A DNA stretch of 64,000 bases from Escherichia phage EP335. The translations under genes and the position numbers were made by a program. Location: sequence record MG748548; one strand, written 5' to 3'. A model generated the notes under the pieces. That model was given only the letters and a program-made list of their open reading frames with translations, had not been told where the DNA came from and did not search any database. Below, in pieces: positions 22,305-64,000 of the stretch (position 1 is the first letter of the stretch; each line of letters begins with the position of its first letter).

Positions 22305-23045
22305 TTAGAATGGAGATTCGTCTTCTTCAAAAGTAGACTCAGGCTCACGATCGATAGTAGGGATAGAAGCAACCGGCTCTTTCTGCTCGTTCTCAGAAGC
22401 CTTAGTGACTTCACGACCAGCGAGAGGAATGTTCTTAGCGTCATTAGCTTGGGTAAGCAGGTTACGCTGGAATGGGAAGATTACCTGATAAGCAGCTACG
22501 TTATCATCTGTTTCAGCATACGGTTCGAAGAAGACCAGAGGACTGCGAGCAGCAGCAACAGCTTCACGATACTTGGTAGGAATCGGAGTAATCTGTTTGA
22601 TAGAGTTCTTAACTTCACCAGCTTTGTTGGTGTAAGAGTTGATTAGAACGTTTACAGGCTGACCTAACAGCATTTCTTTAAACCAAGCCAAATCACCTTT
22701 CAGTGCTTGGATGCTAGGGTCAACCATCTTAATTAGGTTGAGAATACCAGAGTTCTTAGCTCGTGGGTTTACATCGAAGCTCTTAAACTGACATGCAGGG
22801 CGCGGGTCAAGAGCATTGCCTTCAGAGTCCTTACCGGTTGCATCAACACCAATCAGCTCAAACGCCAAGTCCATACGGAAAGCTGGGTTCTTAGGAGTAA
22901 CTGCTTTAGTCTTAGGGTCAACCCAAGGGTCACGATTGTGAACACCAAGACCAACAACACGAACGATACGAGCTTCGTACTCACCATCAGGGATTACGTC
23001 GTAGTTGGATTTACGGGAAACGGACATAGTTGGGATAGAAGACAT
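22305..23045 (-). CDS. Putative single-stranded DNA-binding protein
   Basis: 246-aa protein ending in acidic tail EEDESPF (terminal Phe, as in SSB C-termini); weakly supported. Confidence 0.45.
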   Translation of the reverse strand: MSSIPTMSVSRKSNYDVIPDGEYEARIVRVVGLGVHNRDPWVDPKTKAVTPKNPAFRMDLAFELIGVDATGKDSEGNALDPRPACQFKSFDVNPRAKNSGILNLIKMVDPSIQALKGDLAWFKEMLLGQPVNVLINSYTNKAGEVKNSIKQITPIPTKYREAVAAARSPLVFFEPYAETDDNVAAYQVIFPFQRNLLTQANDAKNIPLAGREVTKASENEQKEPVASIPTIDREPESTFEEDESPF

Positions 23046-23102
23046 ATTTTAATTTCCTTATTTAATTTAAGATTGTTGCTCACTTTGAGCGGTTATGTAT
23101 AG

Positions 23103-23111
23103 TATACATTA
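23103..23111 (-). promoter_or_regulatory. TAATGTATA promoter-like element upstream of the SSB-like gene
   Basis: Reverse complement of 23103-23111 is TAATGTATA, about 60 nt upstream of the start at 23045; a second copy in + orientation lies at 23175-23183. Confidence 0.4.
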
Positions 23112-23590
23112 CACCTATACCGATAAGGGTGCTATATAGTATAAGCAGTAGTGGTAGTAGATATTGACTACTAGTAATGTATATATTGTATAGATGATAA
23201 TTCTATTGCAGGCTTGTATATTGGGCAATTCTCAGAATCCCTTGCAAGTACCGAAGGGCAGGAGACACCTGCGAGATAAAAATAGAGAATTAAGGAATCC
23301 TTGATTTAGGTTGTAGGGACTCCTAGGGACTTTGATTCTCTATTTAAAAGAAATATTAATTACTTACTACCTAAATAGTTAACTAACTTACTTAAAACCT
23401 TTTCAATAAGAATTGCTAAAAGGATAATTCCTAAGAAAGCTAATAAGAGAAAGGCATAAGTTACCATTCCATCATTCCTTTTAATCTAGATTCTTCTACT
23501 ATTCGCTGATAGAGTAAGTTAGACTCAGCTTGATCTTTTAACATTTTACTGTATTGATCTCTGAGACTATCTTTATAAACAACAGGTGGT

Positions 23591-24097
23591 TTAAATAGTG
23601 ATGATACTTTGTTCTTTTCTTCTTTCATCAAAAGTCTTCCTAATCTCTTGCAGAGATACAGCTTTAAAGTTGATTTGTTCCATCGAGGTACAGAAGTATC
23701 TCCAATCATCAATCACATGATTGTGAGTATGAGCATAGATGTTGAACTTCCCTCTCATTTCATCAGCGTGAATGGGAATGTGAGTCACCCAAAACTCTTT
23801 GTACTTGAAGTCACCTGATACAGTTCTGAACACTTTCATAATCTGTGGTAACAAATCCAGTCTGTCATGATTCCCTAAGACAAGATGCTTCTCGCCTTTA
23901 ATCTCATAGATGATATCCAGTGCATATGGTTCAAACACCCAATCACCAGTGAAGAAAGTCTTATCTCGTTTAGTCACATGGTCAAACGCTGAAAGAACTG
24001 CTTTATCGTGCTCTTCAATACTACCAAACTGTTTACGAAACTTGCAGATATTACGATGACCTAAGTGACCATCTCCTGCGAAATATACTTCAGCCAT
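23591..24097 (-). CDS. Metallophosphoesterase (calcineurin-like phosphatase)
   Basis: Motifs GDGHLGH, GDWVF, GNHD and HTH match the MPP signature D-x-H...GD...GNH[DE]. Confidence 0.8.
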   Translation of the reverse strand: MAEVYFAGDGHLGHRNICKFRKQFGSIEEHDKAVLSAFDHVTKRDKTFFTGDWVFEPYALDIIYEIKGEKHLVLGNHDRLDLLPQIMKVFRTVSGDFKYKEFWVTHIPIHADEMRGKFNIYAHTHNHVIDDWRYFCTSMEQINFKAVSLQEIRKTFDERRKEQSIITI

Positions 24098-56065: not shown

Positions 56066-56336
56066 TAGCTACTCGCAAGTCTTCATTAGCACGAGCAAGG
56101 CGTTTAACTTCATGATCAAGGCTGATAAGGCGCTTATTTCTATCTTCAACCTGTTCAACCAGATCAAAAAGCTCAACTCTCACCTTTTCTGTATACATCT
56201 CCTCTACTTTAACCAGACTGTTATAGCGACGTTCCCAGCTGGCTGCTTTATTGCGTAGCATAATAAAACCTAACACAGCAACAGTTAACAGCAATACAAG
56301 TAAGAATTTATATACTTCAATACTCATCTTATTCAC
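56031..56336 (-). CDS. Membrane-anchored coiled-coil protein
   Basis: N-terminal TM FLLVLLLTVAVLGFIM followed by a charged heptad region. Confidence 0.45.
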   Translation of the reverse strand: MNKMSIEVYKFLLVLLLTVAVLGFIMLRNKAASWERRYNSLVKVEEMYTEKVRVELFDLVEQVEDRNKRLISLDHEVKRLARANEDLRVAIAKQQEINSEG

Positions 56337-56525
56337 CTTTAAAGTAAGTTATTATAAGAAATATTATTTAGAATTATTATTTTCTAAACATAATTTCTAT
56401 AATCTTTTTCAGAGGTCTATATACAGTCATTACCCCTAGTTCCAAATTGCTTCCACTTTTCAGCGACTATTTTCTAAGTGGTTGGTTTATAAGGGAATTT
56501 AGTTTGTCAATTCTGGCACCTATGA

Positions 56526-61347: not shown

Positions 61348-61725
61348 CTATGGATTTACACATTGACCGTTACCGGATGCCACTTCATTCATAGACTCAT
61401 CGAACAAGGTTAGGGATGAGCGTAACAGGTGATCAATCATGATTTGCTTGCCAGTGGTTTCATTTACCAGTTGAATAGTTTTATCGAATGATAATACCTG
61501 ATCGAAATCACCAACGTGTAAAATAATAACCTTCGGTGATTGTTTACCAGTATCATAATTTTCTATGAGATAGGTACATTGCAAGCCTTCGATAGTCTTA
61601 GGTGTGAATGTTGCAGCCTTAACACTACCCATAGACGATAGGAGAACACCCAGCAGGAGAACAACCAGAAAGAAGCCTACGAACACTTTTACCACAAATT
61701 TGATAATACCCATGATGATAATCAC
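61348..61725 (-). CDS. Membrane-anchored protein
   Basis: Strongly hydrophobic N-terminus FVVKVFVGFFLVVLLLGVLL followed by a soluble domain. Confidence 0.45.
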   Translation of the reverse strand: MIIIMGIIKFVVKVFVGFFLVVLLLGVLLSSMGSVKAATFTPKTIEGLQCTYLIENYDTGKQSPKVIILHVGDFDQVLSFDKTIQLVNETTGKQIMIDHLLRSSLTLFDESMNEVASGNGQCVNP

Positions 61726-62089: not shown

Positions 62090-62961
62090 TATTGTTTAGC
62101 ACTGATACAATCAGCCAGATTAAAATGAATGGTGTACATCGCATTATTTTCGCTATTGTAAACCGTGGTAGCGAGCATTGATTCATTCATCGGGCCATAG
62201 CTGACCAGATTAGTGACAGCTTTCGCATGGCTGTAACGTTGTACAGTACCAAATGTGACTAGTTCGGGATCATTATCAGTACGCTTTAATAACAGATCTT
62301 CATTGCCCTGATTATCTAGTGTTTTGGTACTAACGACCAGACCATCACGGGAAACATTACTAAATTTAACCTTTAAAACGACCTGATTGGTGTCACTATC
62401 CGCACCATTACAGACTAGCCATTGCTTAGGTGCAACCTTAACGAATAGATTAGCGGCATCACTAGCAACAGGAGCAGGACTAGCAATAGCGTTATCAGAG
62501 ATAGCACCAACGACAGCACTGACACCGATAGCTGCAACCAGTGCATAACTTGCAAGGTTGACAGACTTCATAATCTTACCTGCAATAGAAGGCTTGCTAT
62601 CTTTCTTCTTCATGTTCTGGATAGCTTCAACCATAGCAGACAAGCGGGATAATAATGCGTTAACATCACGGCAAGATTCAGGCCAATCGTTTTGAGTCCA
62701 ACTATCTAAGTTAGCCTGAATGTAACAGTTAATAGCGTCCTGCATATCGGTAAAACCATTCTCTTTGAATGACTCACTATCTTCACACTGTAAAGCGTTC
62801 GCAGCAGAATCGATGATAAGACAAGCCAGAATAATAGAGTTTTTAAAGCTGGTACGGGCTTGCTGGTTATCCATCCATTGAGTAGGCACACCAACGGAAA
62901 GACCTAACGGGGAAAGTTTTTCATTTGCTTGATTCAGATGTTTGATTGCTAACTTTGACAT
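62089..62961 (-). CDS. Hypothetical protein (most upstream gene of the leftward block in this window)
   Basis: 290-aa ORF directly left of the non-coding region 62962-63830. Confidence 0.5.
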   Translation of the reverse strand: MSKLAIKHLNQANEKLSPLGLSVGVPTQWMDNQQARTSFKNSIILACLIIDSAANALQCEDSESFKENGFTDMQDAINCYIQANLDSWTQNDWPESCRDVNALLSRLSAMVEAIQNMKKKDSKPSIAGKIMKSVNLASYALVAAIGVSAVVGAISDNAIASPAPVASDAANLFVKVAPKQWLVCNGADSDTNQVVLKVKFSNVSRDGLVVSTKTLDNQGNEDLLLKRTDNDPELVTFGTVQRYSHAKAVTNLVSYGPMNESMLATTVYNSENNAMYTIHFNLADCISAKQ

Positions 62962-63165
62962 TTTCGCTAATCCTTTCGGTTGATGTGAACTACAAACTAC
63001 ACTCGCAACTATATATTAAAGGAAAAAACTGTCAACTATTTATTTTCTAACTTTCTTATAACTCACTGAATCATAAAGGAATTTAATTTACTAAACTTTC
63101 TCATTCAGGGCATAGCTTACTACTCTTATTGTTACTTTATAACATAACGCCAGACCAACGGGGAG

Positions 63166-63236
63166 AACGTGCCGCATAAACAGATCTACGGGGCAACGGT
63201 ACAACGCAACCAGCACGGGGGAGTATAAACGGGTAA
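63166..63236. repeat. Cluster of four ACGGGG-type short repeats
   Basis: caACGGGGag, ctACGGGGca, gcACGGGGga, aaACGGGtaa at ~20-27-bp spacing. Confidence 0.5.
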
Positions 63237-63600
63237 CATATAATGTATGTTGTTACATGATGCTATTGTTAGCGGCTTGCGGAAGTAATATACCAATCAA
63301 ATATTTCGCTACTGACGTAGCTCATATGCTTCACTCATCAAACTATCACGCACTGCGTGCAACGCTGAAAAAGAAAAGATTAAAAGAATAACATAAAGAA
63401 ACAATTAAAAGAATAATAATAACATCAATTATTAAATCCAATCTAATTAATACATACATCATTAATCCACTCATAATCATCACACTAATCATTATTTACA
63501 TTCAAACTATGGGGCGATGTGATTGTTACTATCCGGTATTATTAGTCATGAAATGGTGTGCCCTGTACAGTGCTGGCCTCTCATACCCTCCCAATTAATG

Positions 63601-63707
63601 AATGAAATAAACGGGGCAAAAGTAATGGGTACTATATTACACGGGGTAATGATTGCACGGGATAGGACACGGGGGGAGGTTAGGCATTCAGGCACGTTCA
63701 CGGGGAA
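63601..63707. repeat. Cluster of five (C)ACGGGG-type short repeats
   Basis: ACGGGGc, acACGGGGt, gcACGGGat, acACGGGGgg, tcACGGGGaa at ~13-30-bp spacing. Confidence 0.5.
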
Positions 63708-63830
63708 GTAAGGAAGTGAGGGAATAGCCATAAAATAAATGAGGACTCCCCCTTTTTGGGAAACGCGCGCGAGGCGGCTAGGCACACTCGGTCAAATCAG
63801 AATTTTAAACTGTTATATATAAGGTTGAAT

Positions 63831-63977
63831 ATGAATCTCGATACTAAAGAGTTTATTAAAATTGCAATAGAAGATAACTTAAAGAAGATTGGTGATATTT
63901 CTTTATCAGATAGAGAACGGGTGGAATCAGCTCAGATGCTAGTGTTACTAACCAAAGCTTTACGGGAGGTGGAATGA
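63831..63977 (+). CDS. Small protein, first rightward gene after the strand switch (49 aa)
   Basis: Internal ATG of track ORF 63756..63977 (MNLDTKEF...); the stop overlaps the next start (GGAATGA). Confidence 0.4.
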   Translation: MNLDTKEFIKIAIEDNLKKIGDISLSDRERVESAQMLVLLTKALREVE

Positions 63978-64000
63978 ATCTAGTTAAAGTGTTTAGACGG

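What the first reader, a model, noticed from the sequence alone, without database searches (positions are those of the whole stretch)
63160..63720. Two clusters of ACGGGG iterons flanking a G-depleted A/T-rich spacer
Nine ACGGGG-type repeats fall in two groups (63166-63236 and 63601-63707) separated by a ~200-bp stretch (about 63330-63520) almost devoid of G and composed of A/T/C words such as AAAGAATAA and CATTAATCC. The arrangement sits in the non-coding region at the switch from leftward to rightward genes and resembles an origin or packaging-site organisation (protein-binding iterons around an easily melted spacer).
Basis: seen in the sequence. Interest (0 to 1): 0.55.

Follow-up and report, generated by a model that had tools for sequence, protein, structure and literature searches.

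The report
Repeat boxes marking phage genome ends
The ACGGGG repeats are real and sit at the junction where a phiEco32-like coliphage genome is cut and packaged, so they are most likely landing sites for the packaging enzyme, an undescribed detail of a known kind of signal.

Summary
There are seven exact ACGGGG and two ACGGG(T/A) boxes, all on the + strand, in two clusters: 63158-63234 and 63611-63705. Between them lies the longest G-free run of the window (63412-63510).

The window is a Kuravirus (phiEco32-like) coliphage. By homology to phages with mapped ends, 63575-63779 is the roughly 205-bp direct terminal repeat (DTR). Cluster B lies inside it, with its first box exactly 36 bp from the left boundary, as in phiEco32, SU10, YF01 and 4E8. 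Cluster A lies in unique DNA 346-417 bp upstream.

The layout recurs in every Kuravirus-type genome examined, although the sequence between boxes diverges. The +36 box also persists in relatives whose small terminase is only 62-86% identical. Box spacing is quantised at about 15 bp. T7's concatemer junction has the same design, built from CCTAAAG boxes.

Best reading (about 0.55): these are recognition sites for an oligomeric protein, probably the small terminase, that positions cutting at both DTR boundaries. The spacer is sequence-conserved and follows a phage-sigma promoter-like motif, so a T7-style origin or promoter role remains open.

The DTR is already known; I found no description of the box arrays. 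I class this as a new member of a known kind, of moderate interest.

The parts
63008..63035 (-). Leftward sigma-70 early promoter (TTGACA-16-TATAGT) driving the leftward early genes
   Evidence: Matches 11 of 12 consensus positions. A promoter is annotated at the homologous place in 4E8. The block is conserved in part of the alignment.
63158..63234 (+). Cluster A: four boxes (ACGGGG at 63158, 63188, 63215; ACGGGT at 63229) in unique DNA 346-417 bp left of the terminal repeat
   Evidence: Two to four copies occur at the equivalent place in 11 of the 12 Kuravirus-type genomes checked; Bas92 keeps one. The flanks diverge while the boxes are kept.
63240..63250 (+). ATAATGTATGT, an 8/9 match to the phiEco32 gp36-sigma promoter element tAATGTAtA, pointing rightward into the spacer
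   Evidence: The arrangement ACGGGK-N5/6-ATAATGTAT is kept exactly in Bas89 and in metagenomic relatives L023-L025 (4E8 has ATAATGTAA), but it is missing from phiEco32-type genomes. The consensus is taken from PMC4281155. This is a candidate only.
63278..63303 (+). Conserved block TGCGGAAGTAATATACCAATCAAATA of unknown role
   Evidence: Nearly invariant in the 10-genome alignment and recognisable in L022-L025.
63362..63391 (+). Conserved purine-rich start of the spacer (ACGCTGAAAAAGAAAAG...)
   Evidence: ACGCTGAAAAAGAAA is invariant or nearly so in 10 genomes. CTGAAAGAAAAG-type tracts are kept in L022-L026 and L028.
63412..63510 (+). G-free, A/T-rich run containing the conserved block TAATTAATACATACATCATTAATCCACTCATAATCATCAC (63444-63483)
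   Evidence: Longest G-free run of the window and second least stable stretch. The block is conserved across 10 genomes. The global cumulative G-C minimum is at 63507.
63506..63521 (+). Conserved ACTATGGGG(CGATGTG) block that ends the spacer
   Evidence: ACTATGGGG is invariant in all Kuravirus genomes checked.
63575..63779 (+). Predicted direct terminal repeat (205 bp). Left boundary ...CTGTACAGTGCT|GGCCTCTCAT and right boundary ...GAGGCGGCT|AGGCACAC; both share CT|RG(C/G)C.
   Evidence: Homology to the phiEco32 ends (record 1-193 and the right end), the DTRs annotated in 4E8 and YF01, the SU10 ends, and the Paul record, which ends exactly at CAGTGCT. These ends were mapped experimentally according to PMC4281155 and PMC9965538.
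63611..63705 (+). Cluster B: five boxes (ACGGGG at 63611, 63641, 63669, 63700; ACGGGA at 63657) inside the terminal repeat, at +36, +66, +82, +94 and +125 from its left boundary
   Evidence: The first box is at +36 in phiEco32, SU10, YF01, 4E8 and the window. AAATAAACGGGT is kept at a similar offset from a similar boundary-like sequence in L022-L027.
63737..63769 (+). Most conserved block of the repeat, AAATGAGGACTCCCCCTTTTTGGGAAACGCGCG. On the - strand it contains an inverted near-copy (AAGGGGGAGT) of the extended box ACGGGGGAGT.
   Evidence: pair I8. GAGGACTCCCC is kept in L022-L027. PMC9965538 notes that nt ~130-170 of the DTR is conserved.
63780..63824 (+). Invariant sequence just right of the repeat (AGGCACACTCGGTCAAATCAGAATTTTAAACTGTTATATATAAGG), holding the rightward early promoter
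   Evidence: Invariant in 10 genomes. A promoter is annotated at the homologous place in 4E8. The first rightward gene starts at 63831.

Best explanation
The region is the concatemer junction (terminal region) of a Kuravirus/phiEco32-like podophage whose virion DNA carries short direct terminal repeats. Positions 63575-63779 are the repeat. The ACGGG(G) boxes are same-orientation recognition sites for an oligomeric DNA-binding protein. The most likely candidate is the phage's small terminase (TerS), whose gene starts about 1.3 kb downstream, next to the large terminase. The protein would load on cluster B (inside the repeat, first box fixed 36 bp from the left boundary) and on cluster A (unique DNA about 350-420 bp upstream). 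That would mark the junction on replicated concatemers and position the nuclease for the two sequence-related cuts (CT|RGSC) at the repeat boundaries, after which packaging starts. This works like T7 pacB/pacC. What is shown: the boxes, their non-random clustering and conservation, their fixed position relative to mapped ends, and the roughly 15-bp lattice. What is inferred: which protein binds them, and that binding directs cutting and packaging. The A/T-rich, G-free spacer is a sequence-conserved linker between the two arrays. It may additionally serve promoter or origin functions.
For: (1) Location. The region aligns with the experimentally mapped ends of phiEco32 (193-bp repeat) and with the annotated or mapped repeats of 4E8, YF01 and SU10. 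The Paul record ends exactly at the left boundary.
(2) The first box of cluster B is at +36 from the left boundary in all five genomes with defined ends. In more distant relatives (L022-L027), AAATAAACGGGT sits at a similar offset from a similar boundary-like sequence (read by eye, not measured).
(3) The two-cluster, single-orientation layout is present in 12 of 12 Kuravirus-type genomes examined, with no reverse-strand copies. Box positions are more conserved than the bases between them: 0.80 against 0.58, reached by 10 of 5000 permutations.
(4) The clustering is far beyond chance.
(5) Neighbour spacings fall into classes of 12-16, 27-31, 42-48 and 59-64 bp. The periodicity score peaks at about 15 bp (0.71) and is absent at 10.5 bp. 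This fits a multimeric or ring protein rather than independent monomers.
(6) T7's junction, read directly, has the same design: CCTAAAG boxes in one orientation to the left of, inside and to the right of its 160-bp repeat, on a 13-bp lattice. In T7, TerS gp18 recognises PacB and gp19 cuts at PacC (PMC9860248).
(7) The phage encodes a TerS candidate next to TerL. A profile of this family weakly matches two solved small terminases (7joq E=0.0056, 6w7t E=0.094). This agrees with the PaP3-like TerS assignment in PMC9965538.
(8) Both boundaries share CT|RG(C/G)C.
Against: No binding or packaging data exist for any Kuravirus, and I could not read Savalia 2008 or Pavlova 2012.
Box number does not track TerS divergence. 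L028 (TerS 51% identical) has 12 or more boxes. L026 and L027 (62-65%) have one or two and carry GGGTAGGGTA repeats instead. Grimontviridae with similarly distant TerS lack the boxes altogether.
The TerS assignment rests on weak profile hits. The monomer model was poor (pLDDT 64) and gave no fold match.
Cluster A lies at a variable distance from the boundary (-284 to -417 nt). It also lies 120-200 bp upstream of an early promoter, so a different role for it is possible.
The genomes used for the lattice are related to one another, so the periodicity is not based on independent samples.
Confidence: 0.55

Rival explanations
1. The region is a replication origin. In one version the ACGGGG boxes are iterons for an initiator, and the adjacent G-free A/T-rich stretch is the unwinding element. 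In the other, T7-style version, a phage-specific promoter (ATAATGTAT at 63240) fires into a purine-rich and then A/T-rich stretch and primes or activates replication, like T7 phiOR next to the right terminal repeat.
For: The spacer is the second least stable stretch of the window, and the global cumulative G-C minimum is at 63507. A motif matching the gp36-sigma promoter, followed by a conserved polypurine tract, precedes the A/T-rich run. It is conserved in several lineages. T7 places a promoter-type origin (phiOR) upstream of its right repeat. The relative GAP52 has three perfect DnaA boxes in its equivalent non-coding region.
Against: The boxes are a 6-9 bp core on a lattice of about 15 bp, unlike 17-22 bp iterons set in helical phase. 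No DnaA or IHF consensus site is present. No initiator gene was identified nearby. The skew minimum coincides with the switch in gene orientation and with the physical genome ends, so it is not diagnostic. Cluster B's fixed +36 offset from the cut site is unexplained by an origin. The promoter-like motif is absent from phiEco32-type genomes and, as a one-mismatch hit, is no more frequent than chance in the window. Other equally A/T-rich regions exist at 56283-56432 and about 23100-23640.
Confidence: 0.2
2. The boxes are binding sites for a phage (or host) transcription regulator that controls the two divergent early promoters; each cluster lies about 120-215 bp upstream of one of them.
For: Cluster A is about 125-200 bp upstream of the leftward sigma-70 promoter at 63035-63008. 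Cluster B is about 120-215 bp upstream of the rightward promoter region at 63780-63824.
Against: Both clusters have the same absolute orientation, so they face their promoters in opposite senses. They do not overlap the promoters. The offset that is conserved is to the repeat boundary, not to the promoters. L025 has boxes on both sides of its inferred repeat boundary.
Confidence: 0.12
3. The G-tracts act through DNA or RNA structure (G-quadruplex or R-loop) rather than as protein sites, or they are a non-functional compositional relic.
For: There are strong, opposite strand asymmetries: G-rich clusters and a G-free spacer. In phiEco32, three GGGG tracts lie 13-14 nt apart.
Against: Loops of 9-25 nt are too long for stable intramolecular quadruplexes, and cluster A has spacings of about 24 nt. 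The AC preceding the G-run is as conserved as the Gs, which argues for base-specific recognition. Conservation across diverged flanks argues against a relic.
Confidence: 0.05

Closest known systems
Direct terminal repeat region of phiEco32 and other Kuravirus phages (193-bp DTR; Savalia 2008 as cited in PMC4281155 and PMC9965538)
   Same: The sequence is homologous. It has the same boundary sequences, the same +36 first box, the same conserved GAGGACTCCCCCTTTTT block and the same flanking early promoters.
   Different: The repeat here is predicted to be 205 bp, like 4E8's 206 bp, with five boxes instead of four and different sequence between them. The papers I could read describe the DTR and its conserved nt 130-170, but not the ACGGGG arrays, cluster A or the spacer.
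Phage T7 concatemer junction (pacB/pacC, CCTAAAG short-repeat arrays, phiOR)
   Same: Both have a short DTR flanked by, and containing, same-orientation 6-7 bp boxes on a non-helical lattice (13 bp in T7, about 15 bp here). In T7 the boxes lie at -106 and -77, at +17, +41 and +60, and at +175 to +332. T7 also has a phage-specific promoter upstream of its right repeat. In T7, TerS recognises PacB and TerL cuts at PacC.
   Different: There is no sequence similarity. T7's largest array lies to the right of the repeat, whereas here the arrays are to the left of and inside it. Kuravirus has no phage RNA polymerase, only a phage sigma factor. From my own knowledge, the role of the T7 boxes themselves is not firmly established.
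Multi-site terminase recognition regions: lambda cosB R-sites, SPP1 pacL/pacR, P1 pac hexamers (from my own knowledge, not tested here)
   Same: All are several short repeated elements near the cleavage site, bound by the small terminase or pacase, sometimes as two groups that flank the cut.
   Different: Those phages make cohesive ends or package by headful, not short blunt DTRs. The motifs are unrelated. No IHF site was found here.
Iteron-type origins (lambda ori, plasmid oriV)
   Same: Direct repeats lie next to an A/T-rich, easily melted stretch.
   Different: The box core is 6-9 bp on a 15-bp lattice rather than about 19-22 bp iterons in helical phase. There are no DnaA or IHF sites and no adjacent initiator gene, and one array lies inside the terminal repeat.

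Membership tests
Kuravirus (phiEco32-type) direct terminal repeat | Sequence homology to a physically mapped terminal repeat, including both boundary sequences | tested here: met
   The alignment to the phiEco32, SU10, YF01 and 4E8 ends keeps the boundaries CAGTGCT|RGCCTYTC and GCGGCT|AGGC.
Kuravirus (phiEco32-type) direct terminal repeat | The segment is physically present at both ends of this phage's virion DNA | not testable with these tools
   The window and its identical source contig (Logan SRR8505896_131, 76,597 bp) hold one internal copy, as expected for a collapsed assembly. Read-level data are needed.
Terminase recognition (pac/cos-type) site | Lies at or next to the sites where mature genome ends are made | tested here: met
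   Cluster B begins 36 bp inside the left boundary in every genome with defined ends.
Terminase recognition (pac/cos-type) site | Bound specifically by the small terminase subunit | not testable with these tools
   A TerS candidate exists, with weak profile hits to the solved small terminases 7joq and 6w7t and an assignment in PMC9965538. There are no binding data. The test for co-variation with TerS divergence was inconclusive.
Terminase recognition (pac/cos-type) site | Needed in cis for packaging | not testable with these tools
   This needs a plasmid-transduction or deletion assay.
T7-like concatemer-junction short-repeat arrays | Same-orientation short boxes around and inside a short DTR, with quantised spacing | tested here: met
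   T7: CCTAAAG boxes with spacings of 13, 25 and 26 bp. Here: ACGGGG boxes with spacings of about 15, 30, 45 and 60 bp.
Iteron-type replication origin | Iterons of about 17-22 bp repeated in helical phase | tested here: not met
   Only a 6-9 bp core is conserved. The periodicity is about 15 bp, with no signal at 10.5 bp.
Iteron-type replication origin | Adjacent A/T-rich unwinding element | tested here: met
   63361-63510 is the second least stable 150 bp of the window.
Iteron-type replication origin | Host-factor sites (DnaA, IHF) or an adjacent initiator gene | tested here: not met
   There are no 0-mismatch IHF sites and only one 1-mismatch DnaA-like 9-mer. Neighbouring ORFs give no replication-initiator hit.
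T7-type transcription-activated origin | Phage-specific promoter firing into an A/T-rich region | tested here: inconclusive
   ATAATGTATGT at 63240 matches the gp36 element at 8 of 9 positions and is conserved in six lineages (one of them, 4E8, in a one-base variant). It is absent from phiEco32-type genomes and is not statistically enriched.

The most novel reading that the evidence does not exclude
The two ACGGGG arrays are the in-cis code for a ring-shaped small terminase in a short-DTR phage, and their roughly 15-bp lattice reports the register in which DNA wraps the ring. Cluster A and cluster B would be looped together across a conserved spacer that is transcribed by host RNA polymerase carrying the phage sigma factor. 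Late transcription or replication would thereby be coupled to concatemer cutting without a phage RNA polymerase. This would be a host-polymerase version of the T7 mechanism, and a natural substrate for testing the disputed 'nucleosome' model of TerS-DNA recognition.
Probability: 0.15. Interest if true: 0.6.

Novelty: new member of a known kind. Interest (0 to 1): 0.4.

Why it matters
How phiEco32-like (C3-morphotype) phages replicate and package their DNA is described in the literature as unknown (PMC4281155). They have T7-like short terminal repeats but no phage RNA polymerase.

Three features found here turn 'there is a 193-bp repeat' into a set of testable cis elements:
- a conserved, oriented, lattice-spaced box array fixed 36 bp from the mapped cut site;
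- a second array upstream in unique DNA;
- a shared cut-site motif at both repeat boundaries.

These phages are candidates for phage therapy. The elements would help in building transducing or biocontained derivatives, and in setting genome start coordinates correctly during annotation. The result is not surprising in kind: it is the expected type of signal for a phage with terminal repeats.

Tried and rejected
- Coding explanation: ORFs overlapping cluster B (63523-63711 +, 63546-63785 -) change frame, length and start among relatives, so they are not genes.
- RNA element: no Rfam match at E<=1.
- Host-factor sites: no DnaA, IHF or Fis consensus enrichment.
- TerS fold confirmation: the AlphaFold monomer model had pLDDT 64 and pTM 0.29. 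Foldseek against the PDB returned nothing below E=1. Single-sequence PDB and Pfam searches were empty. Only the family profile gave weak small-terminase hits.
- Small 'terminase' genes in the leftward early block (window 61348-61725, phrog_13168): the protein has a signal- or membrane-like N-terminus and no supporting domain, so the label is probably wrong and I did not use it.
- Co-variation of the box motif with TerS divergence: inconclusive.
- Extra ACGGG copies right of the repeat: they lie in homologous small genes and were not counted as sites.
- Contig-end evidence for the termini of this exact phage: the only contig found carries the junction internally.
- Primary papers on phiEco32 (Savalia 2008, Pavlova 2012) are not in the library. 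A search for literature on T7 CCTAAAG returned only noise.
- G-quadruplex reading: rejected on loop lengths and on conservation of the AC dinucleotide.

Full report
**1. What is in the sequence**

Exact ACGGGG occurs 12 times in the 64-kb window on both strands, close to the 9.3 expected. Seven of the twelve lie between 63158 and 63705, all on the + strand. Adding ACGGGT (63229) and ACGGGA (63657) gives nine boxes in two clusters:
- Cluster A: 63158, 63188, 63215, 63229.
- Cluster B: 63611, 63641, 63657, 63669, 63700.

There is no reverse-strand copy in the region. In 300 Markov simulations of the window, no 100-bp stretch held more than 2 ACGGGG or 3 ACGGG; the observed values are 4 and 5.

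Between the clusters, 63366-63510 has 6 G in 145 nt. The run 63412-63510 is G-free for 99 nt, against 56 nt for the next longest G-free run in the window. This stretch is the second least stable of the window. The observation therefore stands; only the left limit is a few bases off.

**2. Where this is**

The window is a Kuravirus-like (phiEco32-like, Gordonclarkvirinae) coliphage, closest overall to Bas89 and KBNP1711. It is identical over the 1,670 bp compared (62331-64000) to a 76.6-kb Logan contig.

The non-coding region aligns at about 85% identity with Bas89 and 4E8. In 4E8 the matching segment is annotated as the 206-bp direct terminal repeat at both genome ends. phiEco32's ends were mapped experimentally (193-bp repeat). 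SU10's read ends showed blunt termini at the same sequences, and YF01's repeat was read on whole-genome nanopore reads (PMC4281155; PMC9965538).

Transferring those boundaries gives a 205-bp repeat at 63575-63779:
- Left boundary: ...CTGTACAGTGCT|GGCCTCTCAT.
- Right boundary...GAGGCGGCT|AGGCACAC.

The Paul record ends exactly at CAGTGCT.

Cluster B is therefore inside the terminal repeat. Cluster A and the spacer are unique DNA at the right end of the mature genome. In a concatemer, or in a collapsed assembly, they sit just upstream of the junction. The region is framed by a strong leftward sigma-70 promoter (63035-63008, 11/12 match) and by an invariant rightward promoter segment just after the repeat.

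**3. Conservation**

I compared 12 Kuravirus-type genomes: the window, Bas89, 4E8, phiEco32, Bas90, Bas92, Bas94, NJ01, SGF2, O18-011, YF01 and SU10. All have a left cluster (1-4 boxes) and a right cluster (4-5 boxes), always on the same strand, while the bases between boxes differ.

In a 10-genome alignment, box positions are more conserved than the interspersed positions: 0.80 against 0.58, a value reached by 10 of 5000 random placements. In every genome with defined ends, the first box of cluster B starts 36 nt inside the left boundary.

I also looked at metagenomic relatives found through the small-terminase candidate (62-86% identical to the 4E8 protein; loci L022-L027). They keep three elements: the GAGGACTCCCCCTTTT block, an AAATAAACGGGT box at a similar offset from a boundary-like gcCTYTCAT sequence, and a purine-rich CTGAAAGAAAAG tract. 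The number of additional boxes varies among them, and GGGTAGGGTA repeats partly replace the boxes in some.

L028 (TerS 51% identical) lacks the GAGGACTCCCC block and has no identifiable boundary, but it carries 12 or more ACGGG(G) boxes on one strand downstream of a CTGAAAAGAAAAG tract. Grimontviridae (7-11, GAP52, Privateer) lack the boxes and carry TATGACCTCCCATC repeats instead.

**4. Anatomy beyond the boxes**

The spacer is not just low-complexity DNA. The blocks ACGCTGAAAAAGAAA, TTAATTAATACATACATCAT...CACTCATAAT and ACTATGGGG are nearly invariant.

Directly after the last box of cluster A comes ATAATGTATGT. This is an 8/9 match to the tAATGTAtA element of promoters used by the phage sigma factor gp36 (consensus quoted in PMC4281155), and it points rightward. 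The arrangement ACGGGK-N5/6-ATAATGTAT recurs in Bas89 and L023-L025, and in a one-base variant in 4E8, but it is deleted in phiEco32-type genomes. One-mismatch hits to this element are no more frequent in the window than chance. I therefore treat it as a candidate promoter only.

Both repeat boundaries share CT|RG(C/G)C. The most conserved block of the repeat contains, on the opposite strand, a near-copy of the extended box, AAGGGGGAGT against ACGGGGGAGT.

No ORF is conserved across the region, no RNA family matches, and there are no DnaA or IHF sites.

**5. Spacing**

Neighbouring boxes are 12-16, 27-31, 42-48 or 59-64 bp apart in eight genomes of different lineages. A periodicity score peaks at about 15 bp (0.71) and shows nothing at 10.5 bp. 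The genomes are related to one another, so these are not independent samples. However, the arrangements differ between lineages: 30/16/12/31 here, 29/14/13 in phiEco32, and other patterns in L025 and L028. A quantised lattice out of helical phase fits contacts with successive subunits of an oligomer better than it fits independent binding sites.

**6. Comparison made with tools**

I assembled the T7 junction from its two ends. CCTAAAG boxes, all in one orientation, lie at -106 and -77, inside the 160-bp repeat at +17, +41 and +60, and at +175 to +332. Their spacings are 13, 25 and 26 bp. The phiOR promoter lies upstream of the right repeat. In T7, the small terminase gp18 recognises PacB and gp19 cuts at PacC (PMC9860248).

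The Kuravirus region has the same design, built from unrelated sequence.

**7. The likely binder**

The gene upstream of the large terminase is the only TerS candidate. It is a 155-157 aa protein, 92-98% identical across Kuravirus, and in this phage it starts about 1.33 kb right of the repeat.

Single-sequence searches found nothing. A 41-member family profile weakly hits two solved small terminases (7joq E=0.0056, 6w7t E=0.094). This is in line with the PaP3-like assignment in PMC9965538. The family has an invariant basic G-R-P-K-G-x-R...T-Q segment. The structure model was too poor to use.

**8. Mechanism, and how sure**

- That this is the terminal-repeat junction of a DTR phage: about 0.9.
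- That the boxes are protein recognition sites under selection: about 0.8.
- That the protein is the small terminase and that binding positions the boundary cuts and starts packaging: about 0.55. This is inferred from location, the fixed +36 offset, the lattice and the T7 parallel.

Rivals:
- A replication origin, either iteron type or T7-like promoter plus A/T-rich type, especially for cluster A and the spacer (0.2). The A/T-rich stretch, the skew minimum at 63507 and the promoter-like motif fit this reading. Box size and phase, the lack of host-factor sites and the +36 rule do not.
- Regulator sites upstream of the two divergent early promoters (0.12).
- A structural or relic reading (0.05).

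The packaging and origin roles are not mutually exclusive; in T7 they are adjacent.

**9. Novelty**

The DTR of these phages is known, and a conserved nt 130-170 segment has been noted. In the papers I could read I found no description of:
- the ACGGGG arrays;
- the upstream cluster;
- the +36 rule;
- the lattice;
- the shared boundary motif.

In kind this is a terminase-recognition or junction repeat array, so I class it as a new member of a known kind, of moderate interest.

Noticed in passing
window 61348-61725 (-): A 125-aa ORF matches phrog_13168, labelled 'terminase' (the same label appears on 4E8 g120c and Bas89_0118). It has a hydrophobic signal- or membrane-like N-terminus and no Pfam support. 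The label is probably a propagated mis-annotation.
   Followed up: partly
window 56283-56432 and 23045-23643: The first stretch is the least stable, most A/T-rich 150 bp of the window. The second is also A/T-rich and holds divergent exact TAATGTATA motifs at 23103 (-) and 23175 (+). Both are alternative candidates for promoter clusters or an origin.
   Followed up: no
window 63916 and 63961; homologous places in relatives: ACGGG(T/A/G) copies continue, on the + strand only, inside the first small rightward genes of all relatives (for example CTTACGGGGATG and TTTACGGGTAGG). They lie in homologous coding sequence, so it is unclear whether they are extra sites.
   Followed up: partly
L014 (Cronobacter phage GAP52) 462-633; L012, L014, L016 upstream of TerS: GAP52 has three copies of ACTTATCCACAGG, two exact and one with a single mismatch; all three contain a perfect DnaA box. 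The Grimontviridae 7-11, GAP52 and Privateer carry TATGACCTCCCATC repeats upstream of TerS, in two clusters in Privateer. This is a different box family in the equivalent region.
   Followed up: partly
L023, L024, L026, L027 (metagenomic relatives), repeat-equivalent regions: These have longer repeat-equivalents (about 410 bp in L023 and L024), with GGGTAGGGTA-type repeats in place of the additional ACGGGG boxes. Only the AAATAAACGGGT box is kept.
   Followed up: no
window 63304-63329: A 26-bp insertion unique to this phage relative to Bas89 and 4E8, containing a small palindrome (GCTAC-TGAC-GTAGC). Just downstream lies a 13-bp palindrome CACGCACTGCGTG (63347-63359), shared with Bas89 and 4E8.
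   Followed up: no
window 63745-63754 versus 63215-63224: The most conserved block of the terminal repeat carries an inverted near-copy (AAGGGGGAGT on the - strand) of the extended box ACGGGGGAGT. It lies 25 nt from the right boundary, whereas the first direct box lies 36 nt from the left boundary.
   Followed up: partly
L029 (Logan SRR8505896_131, 76,597 bp): This contig is identical to the window over the 1,670 bp compared and is probably the source genome or an identical isolate. Its reads could be used to map the termini.
   Followed up: partly
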